Part shown: positions 1 to 7,868 of the stretch, in pieces | How positions within the stretch are numbered: position 1 is the stretch's first letter | Layout of the letters: every line of letters begins with the position of its first letter | Virus record (IMG/VR): IMGVR_UViG_2671180828_000009 | Origin: a virus | Taxonomy: Duplodnaviria; Heunggongvirae; Uroviricota; Caudoviricetes | Direction: 5' to 3' (one strand) | Length of the DNA stretch: 8,598 nucleotides | The notes under the pieces: generated by a model | What the model was told of the DNA's origin: nothing | The model's input: the letters and a program-made list of their open reading frames with translations, nothing else | The model's database searches: none | Translations under genes and position numbers: made by a program

Positions 1-51
1 CCATATGAAATCATAAGAAGAATCATGTTGATAATCATCACAACTTTTCAT
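1..51 (-). CDS. Tail fiber assembly chaperone, N-terminal fragment only (gene runs off the left edge)
   Basis: ATG at 51..49 on the minus strand, 5 nt after the H stop (TAA at 56..54), opens a frame (MKSCDDYQHDSSYDFIW...) that stays open to the window edge. Position matches P2 gene G downstream of H. AT-rich like the H 3' end. Only 17 codons visible. Confidence 0.35.
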   Translation of the reverse strand, partial: MKSCDDYQHDSSYDFIW

Positions 52-53
52 AT

Positions 54-1493
54 TTAATATCCAAATGCAATAAATACAGCGCCTGAAACTTTTGAATCAC
101 TGCTGGTTCCTGATGTCAAACAAGTTACAGCAGTAAACCCATCATTATATATACTTTCGCACGACGTAACGACTTGTGCATATGTCATTTTTGTGACAAA
201 CACACCCCATACTCCGTTAGGGAATGGCGTTGGATATGTAATAGGAAGCTGTTGTGGAATACCAATAGTTGTACTATTAGGAAGATTTCTTCGAAATATT
301 TGTATAATTAAACCATTCGGACCTTTAACCAACAAATTATCGCTTCCTTTTCCTGTTAGCTGAAAATAGCTCATGTCAGGGATTTCATAACTATTAGCAT
401 TACCAACATTTCTACCTGCCGCATTTCCCAAATGCCCTAAACCAAGATAAGTAAGAATTCCTTCTATATCCTTTCCACTCAAATTAGTCAGCGTATTATC
501 CAGCGGTTGTTTGCCTGCCAGCGCATTAAGCATTGTCGTGGCAAAGTTCGGGTCATTCCCCAGCGCCGCCGCCAGTTCGTTCAGTGTATCCAGTGCCGCA
601 GGTGCAGACCCCACCATTGCTGCAATTGCCGATTTCACAAAAGCTGTAGTGGCAATCTGTGTATTGTTGACCGACTGCGCCGCCGTGGGGGCTGTTGGCG
701 TTCCGGTGAGTGCCGGACTCGACAACGGTGCTTTTAGTGCCAGCACATTGTTAATGGTGGTACTGAAATTCGGATCATTGTTAATGGCTGCGGCTATTTC
801 TTTCAGCGTGTCCAGCGTGGCTGGCGCACCATTAATAAGGGCCGTCAGTGCCGCCTGAACAAACGCAGTGGTCGCAACCTGCGTGGTATTATTCCCCGCC
901 GCTGGCGTTGGCGCTTTGGGGGTTCCGGTAAACGTCGGACTTTCTTTGGGTGCATACTGTGAATGTGGGTCCTGTGCGGCAAGGTGTTTTGCCATCAGGT
1001 CATCCACATACACCTTCAGCTCCAGTACCTTGTCATCCACATACTTGCGGGTTGCCAGCACTACAGCAGGATCGATTTTCAGGGTGATATTTTCCGTGCT
1101 GCTGGTAATCAGCACCATGCGCACGGTCTGGGTGCGCCCGCTGCCTTCAGCCAGTTGCGGCTTATAGCTTTCCGGGCAGTTGCCCACGGCAATCAATGCC
1201 CCGGACTCATCAAACAGGCCCACTTCACGTATCCACCAACCTCCCTCGTTTTCAGGGATCACCTGTTCGGCAATAATCTGGCTGCTGTTCTGCGGGTCGA
1301 TATAGAGCATATTCAGCGCAGCCCGGCGTTTCTCATTTACCAGTGCCGTCTGCTTTGCGTCCGGCGTTGGCAATGTTCCGCCGCCATCGCCGACCGCCAT
1401 ATGGGTAATTTTTAAAGGCACACCGAGCGCGGCGGCGCTGGCAAGTTTCGCCGCGCCAATATCCGTCAGCAGGGTATAAAATTTTGTGCTCAT
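54..1493 (-). CDS. H: Tail fiber protein (P2 gpH-like), 479 aa, with a divergent C-terminal receptor-binding region
   Basis: N-terminus MSTKFYTLLTDIGAAKLASAAALGVPLKITHMAVGDGGG... resembles the recalled P2 gpH N-terminal domain. Internal motif ...NNTQIATTAFV...ALDTLNELAAALGNDPNFATTM.NALAGKQP is the conserved tail-fibre repeat seen in P2 H and lambda Stf. Position immediately after I in the late operon. Confidence 0.9.
   Translation of the reverse strand: MSTKFYTLLTDIGAAKLASAAALGVPLKITHMAVGDGGGTLPTPDAKQTALVNEKRRAALNMLYIDPQNSSQIIAEQVIPENEGGWWIREVGLFDESGALIAVGNCPESYKPQLAEGSGRTQTVRMVLITSSTENITLKIDPAVVLATRKYVDDKVLELKVYVDDLMAKHLAAQDPHSQYAPKESPTFTGTPKAPTPAAGNNTTQVATTAFVQAALTALINGAPATLDTLKEIAAAINNDPNFSTTINNVLALKAPLSSPALTGTPTAPTAAQSVNNTQIATTAFVKSAIAAMVGSAPAALDTLNELAAALGNDPNFATTMLNALAGKQPLDNTLTNLSGKDIEGILTYLGLGHLGNAAGRNVGNANSYEIPDMSYFQLTGKGSDNLLVKGPNGLIIQIFRRNLPNSTTIGIPQQLPITYPTPFPNGVWGVFVTKMTYAQVVTSCESIYNDGFTAVTCLTSGTSSDSKVSGAVFIAFGY
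501..941 (-). repeat. Two tandem copies of a ~73-codon tail-fibre repeat inside H (about nt 723..941 and 501..719)
   Basis: Residues 185-257 (SPTFTGTPKAPTPAAGNNTTQVATTAFVQAALTALINGAPATLDTLKEIAAAINNDPNFSTTINNVLALKAPL) and 259-331 (SPALTGTPTAPTAAQSVNNTQIATTAFVKSAIAAMVGSAPAALDTLNELAAALGNDPNFATTMLNALAGKQPL) align along their length with roughly 60% identity. Also visible as paired antisense ORF segments. Confidence 0.7.
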
Positions 1494-2095
1494 GGATTCA
1501 CTCTCATTGTGTCAATAACATGGACCGCCCCGCCTTCATGCGCGGTGCCGCCGGAAATAATTGTTTCGTTGATATACGGATAGATCGTGATTTCTTCACC
1601 AAGATAGCTGGCGGCTCCCACCCAATGCGGGCCGCTGGTCTGCAGATTGATGGACATGCCGATCATGTGACGGCTACATGGTTTGGCATCGCTTATCAGC
1701 CGCTCAAGCTCCAGATAGGTATCTTCAGTGATGCCCTGGTCCTGCACACCAATGTCCAGGCGAAACGTACCCGGTGTTTCTCCGGTCTGCCACCACTCAA
1801 TAATGCGGATCAGGAAGCCGAACGGCTCCACCACCCGCCGCACGGCACTGGTGGTTCCTTTATGCTGATGAATATAAAAAGCATCCTTCACCACCTGTCG
1901 TTTGACGCTTTCCGTCCAGCCCTCGTCCCAGCAATCCACAGAGAACGCCCAGGCGAGATAAGGCAGGAAACTGATCGGACAGGTCGTTGGATTCCACAAG
2001 TCACGCAGCGGCACCTGCAGATCAGAAATCCCGCTGCAGGTTTGCGCCAGTCGGCGCTCCAGTGGCGTTGAACCCGGTGGCAGCAGACTATTCAT
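1490..2095 (-). CDS. I: Baseplate assembly protein I (P2 gpI-like), 201 aa
   Basis: Motifs LPPGSTPLE, LWNPTTCP, LPYLAWAFSVDCWDEGW, GTFRLDIGV are characteristic of P2 gpI-family proteins. 4-nt ATGA overlap with the H start. Position between J and H. Confidence 0.85.
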   Translation of the reverse strand: MNSLLPPGSTPLERRLAQTCSGISDLQVPLRDLWNPTTCPISFLPYLAWAFSVDCWDEGWTESVKRQVVKDAFYIHQHKGTTSAVRRVVEPFGFLIRIIEWWQTGETPGTFRLDIGVQDQGITEDTYLELERLISDAKPCSRHMIGMSINLQTSGPHWVGAASYLGEEITIYPYINETIISGGTAHEGGAVHVIDTMRVNP

Positions 2096-2996: not shown

Positions 2997-3342
2997 TCTC
3001 TGCTCCTGTTGATACGGAAAGGGAAACAGGCACACCGCTATTACGCCGCCCGGTCAGCTCCACCACCATTGAACCGTCAAAATTACTGTTGATGGTGATG
3101 GAATCCAGCGTCAGCCGTGGCTCCCAGCGACTCAGCGCCACATACACTGCCGACATGACCTGCAGGCGTAACGCCGGATTTTGTGGCTGGTCTATCAGTG
3201 CCGACAGCAGGGAACCATATTCCCGGCGAGCAATGCGGCTACCCTGCGGCGTCAGCAAAATGTCCCGCACCGACTGGCGCAGATGGTCAATATCAGTAAT
3301 GGCTTTACCGCTGATATTGTTCATCCCGCTATAAAGCGTCAT
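2983..3342 (-). CDS. W: Baseplate wedge protein W (gp25-like), 119 aa
   Basis: Size and sequence (MTLYSGMN..., ...REYGSLL..IDQPQNPALRLQ...WEPR...) are consistent with P2 gpW. Start ATG overlaps the upstream stop as ATGA. Confidence 0.85.
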   Translation of the reverse strand: MTLYSGMNNISGKAITDIDHLRQSVRDILLTPQGSRIARREYGSLLSALIDQPQNPALRLQVMSAVYVALSRWEPRLTLDSITINSNFDGSMVVELTGRRNSGVPVSLSVSTGAENGSD

Positions 3343-3938
3343 ACCGGGCCTCCGGTTGTATCGCCGCCTTTCAGGACGCCAGTATGCTGATGCGCATCAA
3401 CCACGATCCCGTTAGAACTCATAGCTCCGCCGCCCTGGGTAAGGCACCAGGCCATCTCCCGCGCACGGCGGTTATCCAGCCCCTGATTAAAAACACCTTT
3501 CACATAAACCCAGCGCGGCAACTGTCGGCACGCATCCGCCCAGCGCCGCTGATTGAGCAATTTCACCAGCGTGGAGCTGCAGGCATTGCCTGTCCCCACG
3601 TTGAAGGCAAATGACACCACCGCGTCATACACTTTCTGCGGCGGCTGTTGCTTCACACACCTTTCCAGCGCCCGCTCCACACGCAGCACGTTGGAGATCA
3701 GCCCTTCCGCTGCCTGTCGTTCCGTAATGGTTTTGCCTGGAATGACACCAGATGTATTACCAATGCCGTCTGTCCAGACACCCGCGCTGCACTGATACGG
3801 CTGCAGACGACAGCCTTCGTAATCGGCAATCAGTTTCAGCCCCTCCACGGAGGTGTGAAGCTGCTGAAAACCCGGCAGCGTGGCAGCAATAGCCAGCACG
3901 GCTCCGACAAGGCAGCGTTTAACGATTGATGGATTCAT
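3339..3938 (-). CDS. SAR endolysin, T4-lysozyme (GH24) family, P1 Lyz-like, with a ~30 aa C-terminal extension
   Basis: Weakly hydrophobic Gly/Ala-rich N-terminus MNPSIVKRCLVGAVLAIAATLPG followed by ...YEGCRLQPYQCSAGVWTDGIGNT..., which closely matches the recalled P1 Lyz catalytic region (EGCRRDPYMCPAGVWTDGIGNT). Start chosen at the in-frame ATG 3938 because GGGAGGA sits immediately upstream; the ORF track opens at 3965. Confidence 0.8.
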   Translation of the reverse strand: MNPSIVKRCLVGAVLAIAATLPGFQQLHTSVEGLKLIADYEGCRLQPYQCSAGVWTDGIGNTSGVIPGKTITERQAAEGLISNVLRVERALERCVKQQPPQKVYDAVVSFAFNVGTGNACSSTLVKLLNQRRWADACRQLPRWVYVKGVFNQGLDNRRAREMAWCLTQGGGAMSSNGIVVDAHQHTGVLKGGDTTGGPV

Positions 3939-4134
3939 AGTCCTCCCGCGAGATCTGCCCGTCACGCAGAAGCTGGTAGGCTTTGTGTTTGTAGTACCAG
4001 TTGATAGCCAGCATCAGCACACCAATCATCAGGCCGCCCAGCGTTGAGGCATCCTTGATGGACAAATCGCCCAGCCAGGCCAGCACGACGGCGATGCAAT
4101 ACGTGATAAAGGCGCTGATTCGCTCAAGCGTCAT
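3919..4134 (-). CDS. Class II holin (possible pinholin), 71 aa
   Basis: Two predicted transmembrane helices (ISAFITYCIAVVLAWLG and LGGLMIGVLMLAINWYY) followed by a charged C-terminal tail. Sits immediately upstream of, and overlapping, the SAR endolysin gene. Confidence 0.6.
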   Translation of the reverse strand: MTLERISAFITYCIAVVLAWLGDLSIKDASTLGGLMIGVLMLAINWYYKHKAYQLLRDGQISREDYESINR

Positions 4135-4900: not shown

Positions 4901-5614
4901 TCAGCGGCTGTCATTGCGCAGTCTGCGCTCCAGCTGCTGTTTGTCTTTTTTCACGCCACAGCGGGGATCGAGCTGTAACGCATGGTTGAGATGATTAAGG
5001 GCAGACGCCGGATTCCCGACTTTCACTGCGCCCGGTGTGGTTTCACCGCCCGTGGTGGTGCTGCCCATGACGTGATCCGGTGCATCCTCACGGATTTTCT
5101 GCAGCCAGCCTTTGTTCACATCCTGCAGCAGCGGGTTTTCGCTACGGTTGGAGGTTTTCGCACGCTTCACGCCGTTAAAGCCGATCATGATGCGGTCCAG
5201 TGCCTGACGTTTCACGATGGCGTTACGGATACGCACCTGGAAATCCTGAAACTTCGCCCACAGGTCCAGCTTCGCGTAGGTCAGCACCGTGTCAAAGTTG
5301 GTCTGCTCGCATTTGTATTCCACATCGACCATCAGCGTCGGATCGACAGGCTCACGCTCTTTCGCGGTGGTGTCAGTGGTTCCGGCAATGGTGCTGCCAA
5401 CACCCAGCCCCAGCAACTGACCAGACTGCTCAGTCACTGGCGTGACGTTAATCAGCGTCAGGAATGCGGCGGACTGCTGGATCTGGTCTTCCAGCGTCTG
5501 CTGTACAGACGGCTCCACGGTGAACTTGCTGGACAGTTCTTCAACTGCCACACCGTTCAGACGCGCCAGCTGCTGCAGGTAAGCGTTAAAAGCAAAGCGG
5601 GTATTCTTCTTCAT
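4901..5614 (-). pseudogene. N: Major capsid protein N, 3'-truncated (237 codons versus about 350 expected)
   Basis: N-terminal ~205 aa (MKKNTRFAFNAYL...KFTVEPSV...LDLWAKFQDFQVRIRNAIVKRQALDRIMIGFNGVKRA...) look like a P2 N-family capsid protein. It follows O as expected, but the ORF is about 120 codons short, has a basic non-capsid-like tail (KKDKQQLERRLRNDSR), and no M gene lies between it and L. Confidence 0.7.
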
Positions 5615-6606: not shown

Positions 6607-7578
6607 ATGAACACCACACTGACACCCGCAGATCTCGATCCCCGTCGGCAGGCCATGCTGCTGTACTTTCAGGGATACCGCGTAGCCCGCATTGCTGAAA
6701 TGCTGGGCGAGAAAGTTGCAACCGTTCACAGCTGGAAAAAACGCGACAAGTGGGGTGACTATGGGCCGCTGGATCAGATGCAGCTCACCACCGCCGCACG
6801 CTACTGCCAGCTCATCATGAAGGAGCACAAAGAAGGGAAAGATTTCAAAGAGATTGACCTGCTGGCGCGCCAGTCTGAGCGCCACGCGCGGATCGGCAAG
6901 TTTAACAATGGCGGCAACGAATCCGACTTAAACCCTAACGTCGCCAACCGCAACAAAGGCCCACGCCGTCAGCCGGAAAAGAATGTTTTCACCGATGAGC
7001 AGATTGAGAAGCTGGAAGAAATCTTCCATTCCTCCATGTTCAACTACCAGCGCCACTGGTGGGAAGCCGGAAAAACCAACCGCATCCGCAACCTGCTGAA
7101 GTCACGCCAGATCGGCGCGACCTTTTACTTTGCCCGTGAAGCCCTGATTGACGCCCTGCTGACCGGACGTAACCAGATTTTCCTTTCCGCCAGCAAGGCA
7201 CAGGCCCACGTCTTTAAGCAGTACATCATCGACTTCGCCAAAGAAGTGGAGGTGGAGTTGAAAGGCGATCCGATGGTGCTTCCTAACGGGGCCACGCTTT
7301 ACTTCCTCGGCACCAATGCCCGCACTGCCCAGAGTTATCACGGCAACCTGTATCTGGATGAATATTTCTGGATACCGAAATTCCAGGAGCTGCGCAAAGT
7401 GGCTTCCGGTATGGCTATTCACAAGAAATGGCGACAAACCTATTTTTCCACGCCATCCAGCCTGACACACAGTGCTTATCCGTTCTGGTCCGGTGCGCTA
7501 TTCAACCGTGGGCGCAACAAAGCCGATACCGCACCTGCAGCAACACGCCCGATCTCTGCGGTTGCACTCATGACGTAA
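6607..7578 (+). pseudogene. P: Terminase large subunit P, truncated (323 codons versus about 590 expected)
   Basis: N-terminal region (...[17 protein letters not shown]...[10 protein letters not shown]..., ...[17 protein letters not shown]...) is consistent with the P2 gpP N-terminal and ATPase region. The frame ends in a non-terminase-like tail overlapping the convergent cII-like gene. No portal gene Q follows. Confidence 0.75.
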
Positions 7579-7868
7579 TGTGGCAGTTTCTCTTTTGCCA
7601 CCTCATTAATTGGTACGCATGGCAGGCAGTGAATCTGTGCCAGAAAACCATCTACCAACGTTGAATCTTCAGTCAGATCGGTAAGCAGCCAGATTTCTGG
7701 TGCGGTTAATAAATGAGGTTGAGCTGGGTTCAGCTTGTTCCGCAGAATCTGCACATTCATGCCCGCACGTTCTGCCAGTTGCACCAGATTGTGGCGCAGT
7801 GCGAATGCACGACAGGCTTCATCAAAATGTGGATGTTTGGAAACTTGGTAATCAAACATGGTTTTCAA
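7476..7868 (-). CDS. cII: Phage CII-like regulatory protein (186 CII / CP76 family), probably 3'-truncated
   Basis: [45 protein letters not shown]...[25 protein letters not shown] matches the recalled CP76/CII family N-terminal region. The real start may be M4 at 7859. 130 aa versus about 165-170 for family members. Confidence 0.65.

What the first reader, a model, noticed from the sequence alone, without database searches (positions are those of the whole stretch)
501..941. Tandem duplication of the conserved tail-fibre repeat
Two adjacent ~73-aa units are clearly related at both protein and nucleotide level. Such repeats are recombination-prone and sit at the boundary where shaft and tip domains are exchanged; the composition breakpoint lies at the end of the second unit.
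Basis: seen in the sequence. Interest (0 to 1): 0.35.

Follow-up and report, generated by a model that had tools for sequence, protein, structure and literature searches.

The report
Old two-copy tail-fibre shaft repeat
A decayed P2-type prophage of E. coli has a tail-fibre gene with two old, diverged copies of a very common 74-residue fibre-shaft module, which is ordinary, although close relatives show the array gaining and losing copies by unequal recombination.

Summary
In tail-fibre gene H (54-1493, minus strand), unit 1 is 723-941 and unit 2 is 501-719, joined by one Ser codon. They align without gaps, 45/73 residues identical (z=28.7 against shuffles).

The duplication is old. In-register nucleotide identity is 63%, third-codon-position identity 38%, dS about 1.7, and the longest in-register exact match is 8 nt. 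The DNA similarity is no more than the protein similarity implies, and DNA repeat finders miss it.

The unit is a widespread fibre module with no Pfam model. It occurs in 25,395 clusters of a 1.84-billion-protein library, including P2, lambda-like, P1-like, mycobacterial and cyanobacterial phages. It usually forms head-to-tail arrays of period 74 residues.

Close relatives carry 1, 2, 3 or 4 in-register units. Some are clean hybrid units and some are perfect 222-bp duplications, so the array does change by unequal recombination. The two-unit form dominates in E. coli.

The GC break is at the end of unit 2 (maximum likelihood 499). Homology with relatives ends 33-66 nt further on, in a conserved 22-codon linker. 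That linker carries a decayed DNA-invertase crossover site.

Verdict: real, already known in kind, low interest.

The parts
54..1493 (-). Tail-fibre gene H of a P2-like (Peduoviridae) prophage, 479 aa, intact
   Evidence: ORF. PF12571 at aa 1-150 (E=2e-65) and PF21882 at aa 392-479. It is 100% identical to the annotated 'phage tail protein' of E. coli LR-64-2 and 96.7% to that of CFT073, lying between phage tail protein I and the tail fibre assembly gene.
1044..1493 (-). N-terminal baseplate-attachment domain (aa 1-150)
   Evidence: Pfam Phage_tail_fib PF12571, full-length match 1-150/150. 59% identical to P2 gpH aa 1-150.
723..941 (-). Repeat unit 1 (alpha type), aa 185-257: SPTFTGTPKAPTPAAGNNTTQVATTAFVQAALTALINGAPATLDTLKEIAAAINNDPNFSTTINNVLALKAPL
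   Evidence: Self-alignment. Orthologous alpha units in relatives are 82-100% identical.
720..722 (-). Single Ser codon linking the two units, which sets the period at 74 codons
   Evidence: The same 74-residue spacing is the commonest between consecutive full units in 150 diverse proteins (57 pairs).
501..719 (-). Repeat unit 2 (beta type, always the last unit of the array), aa 259-331: SPALTGTPTAPTAAQSVNNTQIATTAFVKSAIAAMVGSAPAALDTLNELAAALGNDPNFATTMLNALAGKQPL
   Evidence: 82% identical to the single unit of P2 gpH at aa 212-283.
435..500 (-). Conserved 22-codon post-repeat linker (aa 332-353, DNTLTNLSGKDIEGILTYLGLG). This is the zone where homology with relatives ends. GC is 0.35.
   Evidence: Alignment with phage 500465-1. 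The linker follows the last unit in all relatives examined. Homology breaks at 435, or at 464-468. GC values.
432..457 (-). Decayed relic of a Din-type (Gin/Cin/Pin-like) invertase crossover site. Window: TTCTTACTTATCTTGGTTTAGGGCAT. Relatives: TTCTCACATACCTTGGTTTGGGAGAA (19/26 match).
   Evidence: Inverted repeat in phage 500465-1 flanking an invertible segment next to a DNA invertase gene. Site comparison. No match within 3 mismatches and no partner site in the window.
57..434 (-). Low-GC (0.37) exchangeable tip, aa 354-479. aa 375-479 is a confidently predicted lectin-like 'foot' domain.
   Evidence: GC. AF2 pLDDT about 90 for aa 375-479. Foldseek matches the R1 pyocin fibre foot 6cxb (E=7e-6, TM 0.65 normalised by target length, rmsd 2.6) and AP22 gp53 4mtm. 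PF21882. Only 9 E. coli records share this tip.
1..51 (-). Start of the tail-fibre assembly (chaperone) gene, cut by the window edge
   Evidence: ATG at 49-51. Annotated as tail fiber assembly protein in the identical LR-64-2 locus. Sequence.

Best explanation
Window 501-941 encodes two head-to-tail copies (alpha then beta) of a 73-residue tail-fibre shaft module, with one linker residue between them. The module sits between the baseplate-attachment domain (aa 1-150) and an exchangeable receptor-binding tip. The duplication is ancient, and both copies are kept by purifying selection.

Inferred function: each unit adds a fixed length of trimeric stem to the fibre. The stem would consist of a Pro/Thr-rich extended stretch followed by short helices (..TQIATTAFV.., ..LDTLxELAxAL.., ..FxTTxxNxLA..). 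The number of units would then set how far the tip is held from the baseplate.

Shown by comparison: the array changes copy number in evolution by unequal or short-homology recombination between units. Alleles with 1, 2, 3 and 4 units exist in close relatives. The diverged alpha-beta pair in this window is the stable common form.

Tip exchange happens just downstream of the array, not in it. It occurs in a conserved 22-codon linker that, in related phages, holds the crossover site of a DNA invertase that flips alternative tips. In this lineage that site has decayed and the tip is fixed.
For: Repeat and its age:
- Ungapped 62% aa identity, z=28.7.
- pS 0.67, dS about 1.67, dN 0.32, dN/dS about 0.19.
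- Third-codon-position identity is 38%.

Module identity and spread:
- It matches the central regions of more than 30 PHROG tail-fibre families.
- 25,395 clusters reach E<=1e-3 in 1.84 billion representatives, with 2 to 23 matched stretches among the best 150 listed.
- tblastn finds it in P2, lambda-like HK630 Stf, P1-like D6, and Pseudomonas, Mycobacterium, Gordonia, Caulobacter and Nostoc phages.
- Period 74 is the commonest spacing between consecutive units.

Copy-number change:
- Among the 120 closest clusters, about 100 have units at 185-257/259-331, 8 have a third in-register unit and 1 has four.
- L003 middle unit: 55 beta-type informative sites, then 30 alpha-type, with 0 exceptions. 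The switch lies in the 8 nt ACACTGAA.
- L004 middle unit: beta to alpha switch at ATTAFV.
- L005 has u1=u2 at 222/222 nt, and L006 at 220/222.
- E. coli 17MR471 has one alpha/beta hybrid unit, the reciprocal deletion product.
- 930 of 1148 matching E. coli records are colinear over at least 80% of the array query; the colinear rows in the 60-row spread sample span the query length, i.e. two units.

Boundary.

Tip.

Stem structure (weak):
- The AF2 monomer places helices at matching positions in both units, but pLDDT is below 50.
- Part of the unit matches cyanophage A4 gp24 at residues 158-224. Its authors describe that fibre as having a long alpha-helical stem between the head-binding and cell-binding domains (PMC12002296).
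Against: - No confident structure of the unit was obtained. The AF2 monomer model has pLDDT below 50 over aa 1-339.
- In the 80alpha structure 6v8i the matching part of FibU was not modelled.
- The role as a length-setting spacer is therefore inference from position and composition, not shown.
- The invariant motifs are conserved from enterobacterial to actinobacterial and cyanobacterial phages. That is tighter than a passive spacer would seem to need, so an added role is not excluded. Candidates are a trimerisation or registration nucleus, or a docking site for another virion part.
- The hybrid units show that exchanges happened. They do not show by which pathway, nor whether within one genome or between co-resident prophages.
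Confidence: 0.85

Rival explanations
1. The pair is a recent duplication and an active recombination hotspot in this genome. It would be prone to expand or collapse by RecA-dependent recombination, and would itself be the shaft/tip exchange point.
For: - Perfect or near-perfect 222-bp alpha-alpha duplications exist in relatives (L005 222/222, L006 220/222). Those would be such hotspots.
- The GC break coincides with the end of unit 2.
Against: - In this window the units are 63% identical in DNA, with dS about 1.67 and longest exact runs of 8-9 nt. That is far below the roughly 25-30 nt of perfect identity that efficient RecA-dependent recombination in E. coli needs (established knowledge, not tested here).
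- The two-unit allele is the dominant, conserved form.
- Homology with relatives continues 33-66 nt past unit 2.
Confidence: 0.04
2. The units are not mainly a spacer. They would be a functional interaction module, for example the nucleus that sets the trimer register during folding, or a docking surface for the tail-fibre assembly protein or a secondary, reversible host-surface contact.
For: - Very strong conservation of motifs (31 of 73 columns invariant in 10 diverse units) across phages of distant hosts.
- dN/dS is about 0.19.
- The beta-type unit is always the last one, next to the linker.
Against: - The module occurs with many unrelated tips and with different assembly-protein types (Caudo_TAP with or without Caudo_TAP_N), so it cannot be tip- or chaperone-specific.
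- Copy number varies from 1 to 4 among close relatives and up to 11 full units elsewhere. That suits an additive structural element better than a single binding site.
Confidence: 0.1
3. The similarity is a compositional artefact of an Ala/Thr/Pro-rich low-complexity region, not a true repeat.
For: - The region is rich in A, T, P and N.
- BLAST's low-complexity filter masked the first 14 residues of the unit.
- DNA repeat finders saw nothing.
Against: - The full-length ungapped alignment scores 232 against a shuffle maximum of 74, with composition preserved.
- The same 73-column pattern recurs in thousands of proteins with 31 invariant columns.
Confidence: 0.01

Closest known systems
Tail fibre gpH of phage P2 (Peduovirus P2)
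   Same: - Same gene position.
- Same N-terminal PF12571 domain (59% identity over aa 1-150).
- One copy of the same unit at aa 212-283, 82% identical to window unit 2 and 57% to unit 1.
- The unit is followed by a D(A/N)TLT..YLGL linker.
   Different: - P2 has one unit and the window has two.
- P2 has a longer linker (about 60 residues between the unit and YLGL).
- The P2 tip is unrelated and much larger (673 aa in total); the window tip gives no BLAST hit.
H proteins of Wadgaonvirus-type P2-like phages and prophages (Escherichia phage 500465-1, Cartapus, Klebsiella phage 4LV2017, E. coli CFT073 prophage)
   Same: - 94-97% DNA identity from the start of H through both units and the linker.
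- Same two-unit array at aa 185-257/259-331.
- CFT073 also shares the same tip and assembly gene (96.7% over window 1-1500).
   Different: - 500465-1 and several prophages carry an intact crossover site, alternative tips and a DNA invertase.
- The window lineage has a decayed site (19/26). In the identical LR-64-2 locus and in CFT073, an acyltransferase gene stands where the invertase would be.
Conserved tail-fibre segments shared by P2 H, Mu S, P1 S and lambda Stf. I recall these as described by Haggard-Ljungquist et al. 1992 (J Bacteriol 174:1462) and Sandmeier 1994 (Mol Microbiol 12:343); the 1992 paper is not held here and neither was read.
   Same: The unit is found by tblastn in lambda-like HK630 Stf (72%), P1-like D6 (83%, two copies) and P2 (81%). 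This is the classic picture of fibre genes as mosaics of shared motifs.
   Different: Nothing essential differs. The window is one more mosaic, with two copies. Mu itself was not among the listed rows and was not tested.
R-type pyocin fibres and Acinetobacter phage AP22 gp53 (tip domain only)
   Same: The predicted C-terminal domain (aa 375-479) superposes on the pyocin R1 fibre foot 6cxb (TM 0.65 normalised by target length, rmsd 2.6 A) and matches AP22 gp53 4mtm. Pfam Gp53-like_C also hits.
   Different: Sequence identity is only 14-22%. This concerns the tip and not the repeat.
Solved fibres that contain parts of the unit: cyanopodophage A4 gp24 (9K09), 'tail collar fibers gp4' (9D93), 80alpha FibU gp68 (6V8I)
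   Same: - The first half of the unit (SPxLTGxP...NxTxIATTAxV) matches A4 gp24 twice, at residues 158-188 and 194-224.
- The second half (APxxLDTLNELAAALGxDPNFATT) matches 9D93 gp4 at residues 198-244 (E=3e-13) and FibU at 267-297.
   Different: - Only half-units are present, not the 73-residue unit or a tandem pair.
- In 80alpha that part was not modelled.
- The paper behind 9D93 could not be found.

Membership tests
P2 gpH-type tail fibre | N-terminal Phage_tail_fib (PF12571) baseplate-attachment domain | tested here: met
   E=2.1e-65, 1-150/150. 59% identical to P2 gpH.
P2 gpH-type tail fibre | Gene order J - I - H - tail-fibre assembly gene in a P2-like late operon | tested here: met
   ORFs. 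Annotations of the identical or near-identical loci in LR-64-2 and CFT073.
P2 gpH-type tail fibre | C-terminal receptor-binding domain | tested here: met
   PF21882 E=1.2e-6. Confident AF2 domain matching pyocin and AP22 fibre feet. Binding itself was not tested.
P2 gpH-type tail fibre | Homotrimer attached to the baseplate of a virion | not testable with these tools
   Only monomer prediction was available. The prophage in the window is defective.
74-residue tail-fibre shaft repeat (no Pfam or NCBIfam model; central region of PHROGs 454, 2631, 7032, 8713 and others) | Signature SPxLTGxPxAPT..N.TQ.A.TAFV....P..LDTL.E.A.A...D.NF..T....LA.K.PL | tested here: met
   Both units carry all 31 invariant columns of a 10-unit alignment.
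74-residue tail-fibre shaft repeat (no Pfam or NCBIfam model; central region of PHROGs 454, 2631, 7032, 8713 and others) | Head-to-tail arrays with a period of 74 residues | tested here: met
   Window period is 74. It is the commonest spacing in 150 diverse proteins.
74-residue tail-fibre shaft repeat (no Pfam or NCBIfam model; central region of PHROGs 454, 2631, 7032, 8713 and others) | Occurs in tail-fibre proteins of unrelated phages | tested here: met
74-residue tail-fibre shaft repeat (no Pfam or NCBIfam model; central region of PHROGs 454, 2631, 7032, 8713 and others) | Forms an axial trimeric stem | tested here: inconclusive
   AF2 monomer pLDDT is below 50, though helix positions agree in both units. 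A4 gp24 has an alpha-helical stem, but the mapping of residues is not given in the text.
Din-family (Gin/Cin/Pin) invertible tail-fibre tip system | 26-bp crossover site at the constant/variable junction of the fibre gene | tested here: not met
   Only 19/26 positions match the relatives' site. No match within 3 mismatches.
Din-family (Gin/Cin/Pin) invertible tail-fibre tip system | Inverted partner site and alternative tip segment | tested here: not met
   None in the window. The identical LR-64-2 locus has only the assembly gene and an acyltransferase before the sheath gene.
Din-family (Gin/Cin/Pin) invertible tail-fibre tip system | Adjacent serine invertase gene | tested here: not met
   Absent in LR-64-2 and CFT073. 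Present in relatives 500465-1 and L003.
Curated fibre repeats of Pfam (e.g. Phage_fiber_2 PF03406, Collar PF07484) | Significant match of the unit to a curated repeat model | tested here: not met
   No fibre-related Pfam hit for either unit, or for aa 178-354, even at E<=10. No relevant NCBIfam hit.

The most novel reading that the evidence does not exclude
The number of units would be a selectable 'length dial' of the fibre. Short-homology recombination between units would generate 1-4-unit alleles in prophage populations. Selection would then match fibre reach to the thickness of the host's O-antigen or capsule layer. The strong synonymous divergence of the alpha and beta units would be what keeps the favoured two-unit length stable. 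The evidence here shows the alleles exist. It shows neither a phenotype nor any association with host surface type.
Probability: 0.12. Interest if true: 0.45.

Novelty: already known. Interest (0 to 1): 0.17.

Why it matters
Mostly it does not: this is a standard piece of a P2-type tail fibre. The array region (window 435-1100) matches DNA in 1131 of 5426 complete E. coli genomes, and in 924 of them the match covers at least 80% of it.

Three practical points follow.

1. People who engineer P2-type fibres or tailocins should place fusion points in the 22-codon linker after the last (beta) unit. That is where nature exchanges tips. The end of the repeat is not the junction.

2. Natural alleles with 1 to 4 units offer a ready-made series for testing whether fibre length affects host range.

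3. A module present in more than 25,000 protein clusters has no Pfam or NCBIfam model. Building one would improve annotation of 'phage tail protein' genes.

Tried and rejected
- Tandem Repeats Finder and the seed-based repeat finder did not detect the pair in DNA. I wrote a direct in-register comparison instead.
- Pfam and NCBIfam have no model for the unit. The weak hits (Acyl-CoA_ox_N, HTH_3, DprA_N, L-lactate oxidase) are all below their cut-offs, and I treat them as chance matches to the helical LDTLxELA stretch.
- AF2 monomer prediction with a shallow alignment of 26 close homologues failed for everything except the tip: mean pLDDT 45, and below 50 for aa 1-339. I therefore used the Foldseek result only for the tip.
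- The 80alpha paper does not model the matching part of FibU.
- The Bas63 paper concerns podophage GP4, not 9D93 gp4.
- Searches for the motif string, for 9D93 and for 'tail collar fibers' found nothing useful.
- Haggard-Ljungquist 1992 is not held.
- I considered concerted evolution between the two units and rejected it. Alpha and beta types stay distinct across relatives: about 60% identity between types, against 82-100% within a type.
- I considered selection for extra synonymous divergence and rejected it. Observed DNA identity (62.6%) is not below the back-translation expectation (60.4%).
- The three plus-strand ORFs overlapping the region (507-737, 511-858, 868-1167) have no Pfam match and lie antisense to a strongly supported gene, so I treat them as spurious.
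- Rfam finds nothing in the window.
- My first global-alignment estimate of protein breakpoints was confounded by homologous tips and inserted units. I replaced it with unit mapping and DNA comparison.
Full report
CONTEXT

The window is the late-gene region of a P2-like (Peduoviridae) prophage of E. coli, read on the minus strand. Running from the right end towards the left, it holds:
- the start of a CI-type repressor gene and small early genes;
- a truncated large terminase gene;
- scaffold, capsid, head-completion, holin, lysozyme, W, J and I genes;
- the tail-fibre gene H (54-1493);
- the first codons of the fibre-assembly gene.

Window 1-1500 is 100% identical to E. coli LR-64-2 and E423 and 96.7% identical to the CFT073 prophage. 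There the ORF is annotated 'phage tail protein', between 'phage tail protein I' and 'tail fiber assembly protein'. Pfam finds Phage_tail_fib (PF12571) at aa 1-150 and Gp53-like_C (PF21882) at aa 392-479, with nothing in between.

THE OBSERVATION

The best internal self-alignment of H is ungapped: aa 185-257 against aa 259-331.
- Identity is 45/73 with 55/73 positives. The score is 232 against 36 +/- 7 for composition-preserving shuffles, z=28.7.
- In DNA the two units are 137/219 identical in register. By codon position the identity is 67%, 82% and 38%.
- Back-translating the two protein sequences with the local codon usage gives 60.4 +/- 1.8% identity. The observed 62.6% is what the protein similarity alone predicts.
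- Nei-Gojobori estimates are pS=0.67 (dS about 1.67, saturated) and dN=0.32. The longest exact shared run is 8 nt in register and 9 nt out of register.
- Neither TRF nor the seed-based repeat finder reports the pair.

The repeat is real and far beyond chance. The duplication is old, and both copies are under purifying selection.

WHAT THE UNIT IS

The 147-residue pair matches the central parts of more than 30 PHROG tail-fibre families. In phrog_454 both units align as one stretch.

A search of 1.84 billion representative proteins with unit 2 finds 25,395 clusters at E<=1e-3 and 7,459 at E<=1e-10. The best 150 listed have 2 to 23 matched stretches per protein.

tblastn against 50,697 phage records finds it in 720 records. 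These include P2 (81%, one copy), lambda-like HK630 Stf (72%) and P1-like D6 (83%, two copies). They also include Pseudomonas, Burkholderia, Caulobacter and Nostoc phages, and hundreds of Mycobacterium and Gordonia phages.

In the 150 best representatives the commonest start-to-start spacing of consecutive full units is 74 residues (57 pairs). Full copies per protein range up to 11. The first half of the unit (SPxLTGxPTAPT..NxTQIATTAFV) also occurs alone, in runs of up to 22. The 73-residue unit is thus itself made of two sub-motifs that can travel separately.

No Pfam or NCBIfam model covers it.

Among the 120 closest protein clusters:
- about 100 have exactly two units at aa 185-257/259-331;
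- eight have a third in-register unit at 333-405;
- one (Enterobacter roggenkampii, P0155) has four.

Two unit types are stable across relatives. The alpha type resembles window unit 1. The beta type resembles window unit 2 and is always the last unit, ending AGKQPL. Identity is 82-100% within a type and about 60% between types.

DNA of four three-unit alleles was fetched and each middle unit was classified site by site:
- L003: 55 beta-type informative sites, then 30 alpha-type sites, with no exception. The switch lies inside the 8-nt stretch ACACTGAA (codons LDTL).
- L004: the switch from beta to alpha lies at ATTAFV (23 then 54 sites, 7 exceptions).
- L005 (Citrobacter freundii): units 1 and 2 are identical at 222/222 nt.
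- L006: units 1 and 2 are identical at 220/222 nt.

A spread sample of the E. coli matches turned up strain 17MR471. Its H (438 aa) has a single unit that is alpha for the first 60 nt and beta from nt 64 onward. This is the reciprocal deletion product.

These alleles are what unequal exchange between misaligned units predicts (alpha-[beta/alpha]-beta, and a lone [alpha/beta]). They arose at least five times, with different junctions. The junctions sit in microhomologies of 2-8 nt. I therefore infer short-homology recombination or template switching rather than classical RecA-dependent exchange, but this is not shown. Once a perfect alpha-alpha duplicate exists, it would be a good RecA substrate.

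The two-unit form is the common one. 930 of 1148 matching E. coli records are colinear over at least 80% of the array query, in 924 of 5426 complete genomes. The colinear rows of the 60-row spread sample span the query length, as a two-unit allele would.

WHERE SHAFT AND TIP ARE EXCHANGED

A two-segment likelihood scan puts the GC change-point at 499, with a support interval of 474-516. GC is 0.35 to the left and 0.56 to the right.

Homology with relatives does not stop there. It runs to window 435 in most E. coli and phage relatives, and to about 464-468 in others such as phage Cartapus. The intervening 66 nt encode a conserved linker, D(N/A)TLTxLSGKxxxxLLxYLGLG, which follows the last unit in every relative examined.

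In phage 500465-1 the end of this linker is one arm of a 27-nt inverted repeat. The other arm lies 1.8 kb away, beside alternative tip and assembly genes and a DNA invertase gene. The shared site in relatives is TTCTCACATACCTTGGTTTGGGAGAA, and their sequences diverge immediately after it. Programmed inversions of this kind in fibre genes next to 'phage tail protein I' and assembly genes are well documented (PMC9881135).

The window has TTCTTACTTATCTTGGTTTAGGGCAT at 432-457, a 19/26 match. It has no site within three mismatches and no partner site. The identical LR-64-2 locus and CFT073 have an acyltransferase gene where the invertase would be.

The exchange zone is therefore the linker after the array. 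In this lineage the inversion system is gone and a low-GC tip is fixed. The window's linker is itself AT-enriched relative to relatives (GC 0.35 against 0.42-0.53), which pulls the composition break up to the end of unit 2.

THE TIP

AF2 gives a confident model only for aa 375-479 (pLDDT about 90). Foldseek matches it to the foot domains of R1 and R2 pyocin fibres (6cxb: E=7e-6, TM 0.65 normalised by target length, rmsd 2.6 A) and to AP22 gp53. This fits a lectin-like receptor-binding tip. Only nine complete E. coli records share it.

HOW THE REPEAT PROBABLY WORKS

Shown:
- its position between the attachment domain and the tip;
- purifying selection on both copies;
- additive, in-register copy-number variation;
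- co-occurrence with many different tips and with different assembly-protein types.

Inferred: each unit is a segment of trimeric stem that adds a fixed length. The structural evidence for this is weak.
- The low-confidence AF2 model places three helices at the same relative positions in both units: about residues 16-36, 41-55 and 59-68 of the unit.
- The LDTLxELAxAL stretch has hydrophobic residues at a 3-4 spacing.
- The first half of the unit matches cyanophage A4 gp24 (9K09) between its head-binding and cell-binding domains. The authors describe a long alpha-helical stem there.
- The second half matches 9D93 gp4 'tail collar fibers' (E=3e-13) and 80alpha FibU, whose matching part was not modelled.

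A role beyond spacing, such as setting the trimer register or docking, is not excluded.

COMPARISON WITH WHAT IS KNOWN

P2 gpH, fetched and tested here, has the same N-terminal domain (59% identity). It has a single beta-type unit at aa 212-283 (82% to unit 2, 57% to unit 1), a longer linker ending in YLGL, and an unrelated tip.

From my own knowledge, mosaicism of fibre genes through shared motifs among P2, Mu, P1 and lambda has been described since the early 1990s (Haggard-Ljungquist 1992; Sandmeier 1994). The 1992 paper is not held here and I read neither.

The window's gene is a member of the gpH family. It is not a member of the invertible-tip systems, whose three defining features all fail here. 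The feature is therefore already known in kind.

The explicit series of 1-4-unit alleles with hybrid junctions is a tidy illustration. I could not establish whether that series has been described before, and it is not surprising.

VERDICT

- Observation: confirmed.
- Interpretation: right in outline, with three corrections. The duplication is old, so this pair is not a hot substrate. The exchange point lies in the linker or invertase-site relic, 33-66 nt beyond the repeat. The DNA similarity is secondary to the protein similarity.
- Interest: 0.17.

Noticed in passing
window 432-457 (minus strand): Decayed relic of a Gin/Cin/Pin-type invertase crossover site at the constant/variable junction of H. 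It matches 19/26 positions of the site used by phage 500465-1 and several prophages. There is no partner site in the window, and no invertase gene in the identical LR-64-2 locus.
   Followed up: yes
window about 3445-3449; ORF 3339-3965 (minus): A deletion of about 2.3 kb relative to the CFT073 prophage. It removes most of V, plus S, R, lysC, lysB and the gene after the lysozyme gene. It fuses the nearly complete lysozyme gene to the last roughly 37 codons of the spike gene V. The two BLAST segments overlap by 5 nt at the junction.
   Followed up: partly
window about 5013-5014; ORF 4901-5614 (minus): A deletion of about 1 kb relative to CFT073 joins the 5' part of the major capsid gene to the 3' part of the small terminase (M) gene. 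The prophage therefore cannot make heads.
   Followed up: partly
window 6607-7578 (plus) and 7476-7868 (minus): Similarity of the large terminase gene to CFT073 ends at 7528, and its ORF stops after 323 codons. It abuts a truncated CII-like regulator gene on the other strand. The portal gene, which follows the terminase gene in CFT073, is not seen in the window. LR-64-2 annotates a similar pair of truncated pseudogenes.
   Followed up: partly
window 999-1011 and 1032-1044 (inside H, aa 151-165): An exact 13-nt direct repeat, GTCATCCACATAC, spaced 33 nt apart and in frame. It gives YVDD twice (KYVDDKVLELKVYVDDL), whereas P2 gpH has a single YVDD here. It may be a small 11-codon internal duplication at the end of the N-terminal domain.
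   Followed up: no
window 1-434; L001 10560-12051 and L007 1560-3051 (outside the window): The low-GC tip (0.37) continues into a low-GC assembly gene (0.26 in the 53 nt seen). In LR-64-2 and CFT073 this is followed by an acyltransferase gene on the opposite strand, between the fibre module and the sheath gene. It looks like a cargo ('moron') gene, perhaps for surface modification.
   Followed up: partly
L005 3553-3996 (Citrobacter freundii prophage H gene): A perfect 222-bp tandem duplication of the alpha unit (222/222 nt). This is a very recent expansion and would be an unstable direct repeat.
   Followed up: yes
proteins P0001-P0150, e.g. P0007, P0017, P0096: Metagenomic proteins of 1,000-6,500 residues carry up to 18-23 matches to the unit. 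Many match only its first half, so the two sub-motifs form separate long arrays. No curated family (Pfam or NCBIfam) covers this very abundant module.
   Followed up: partly
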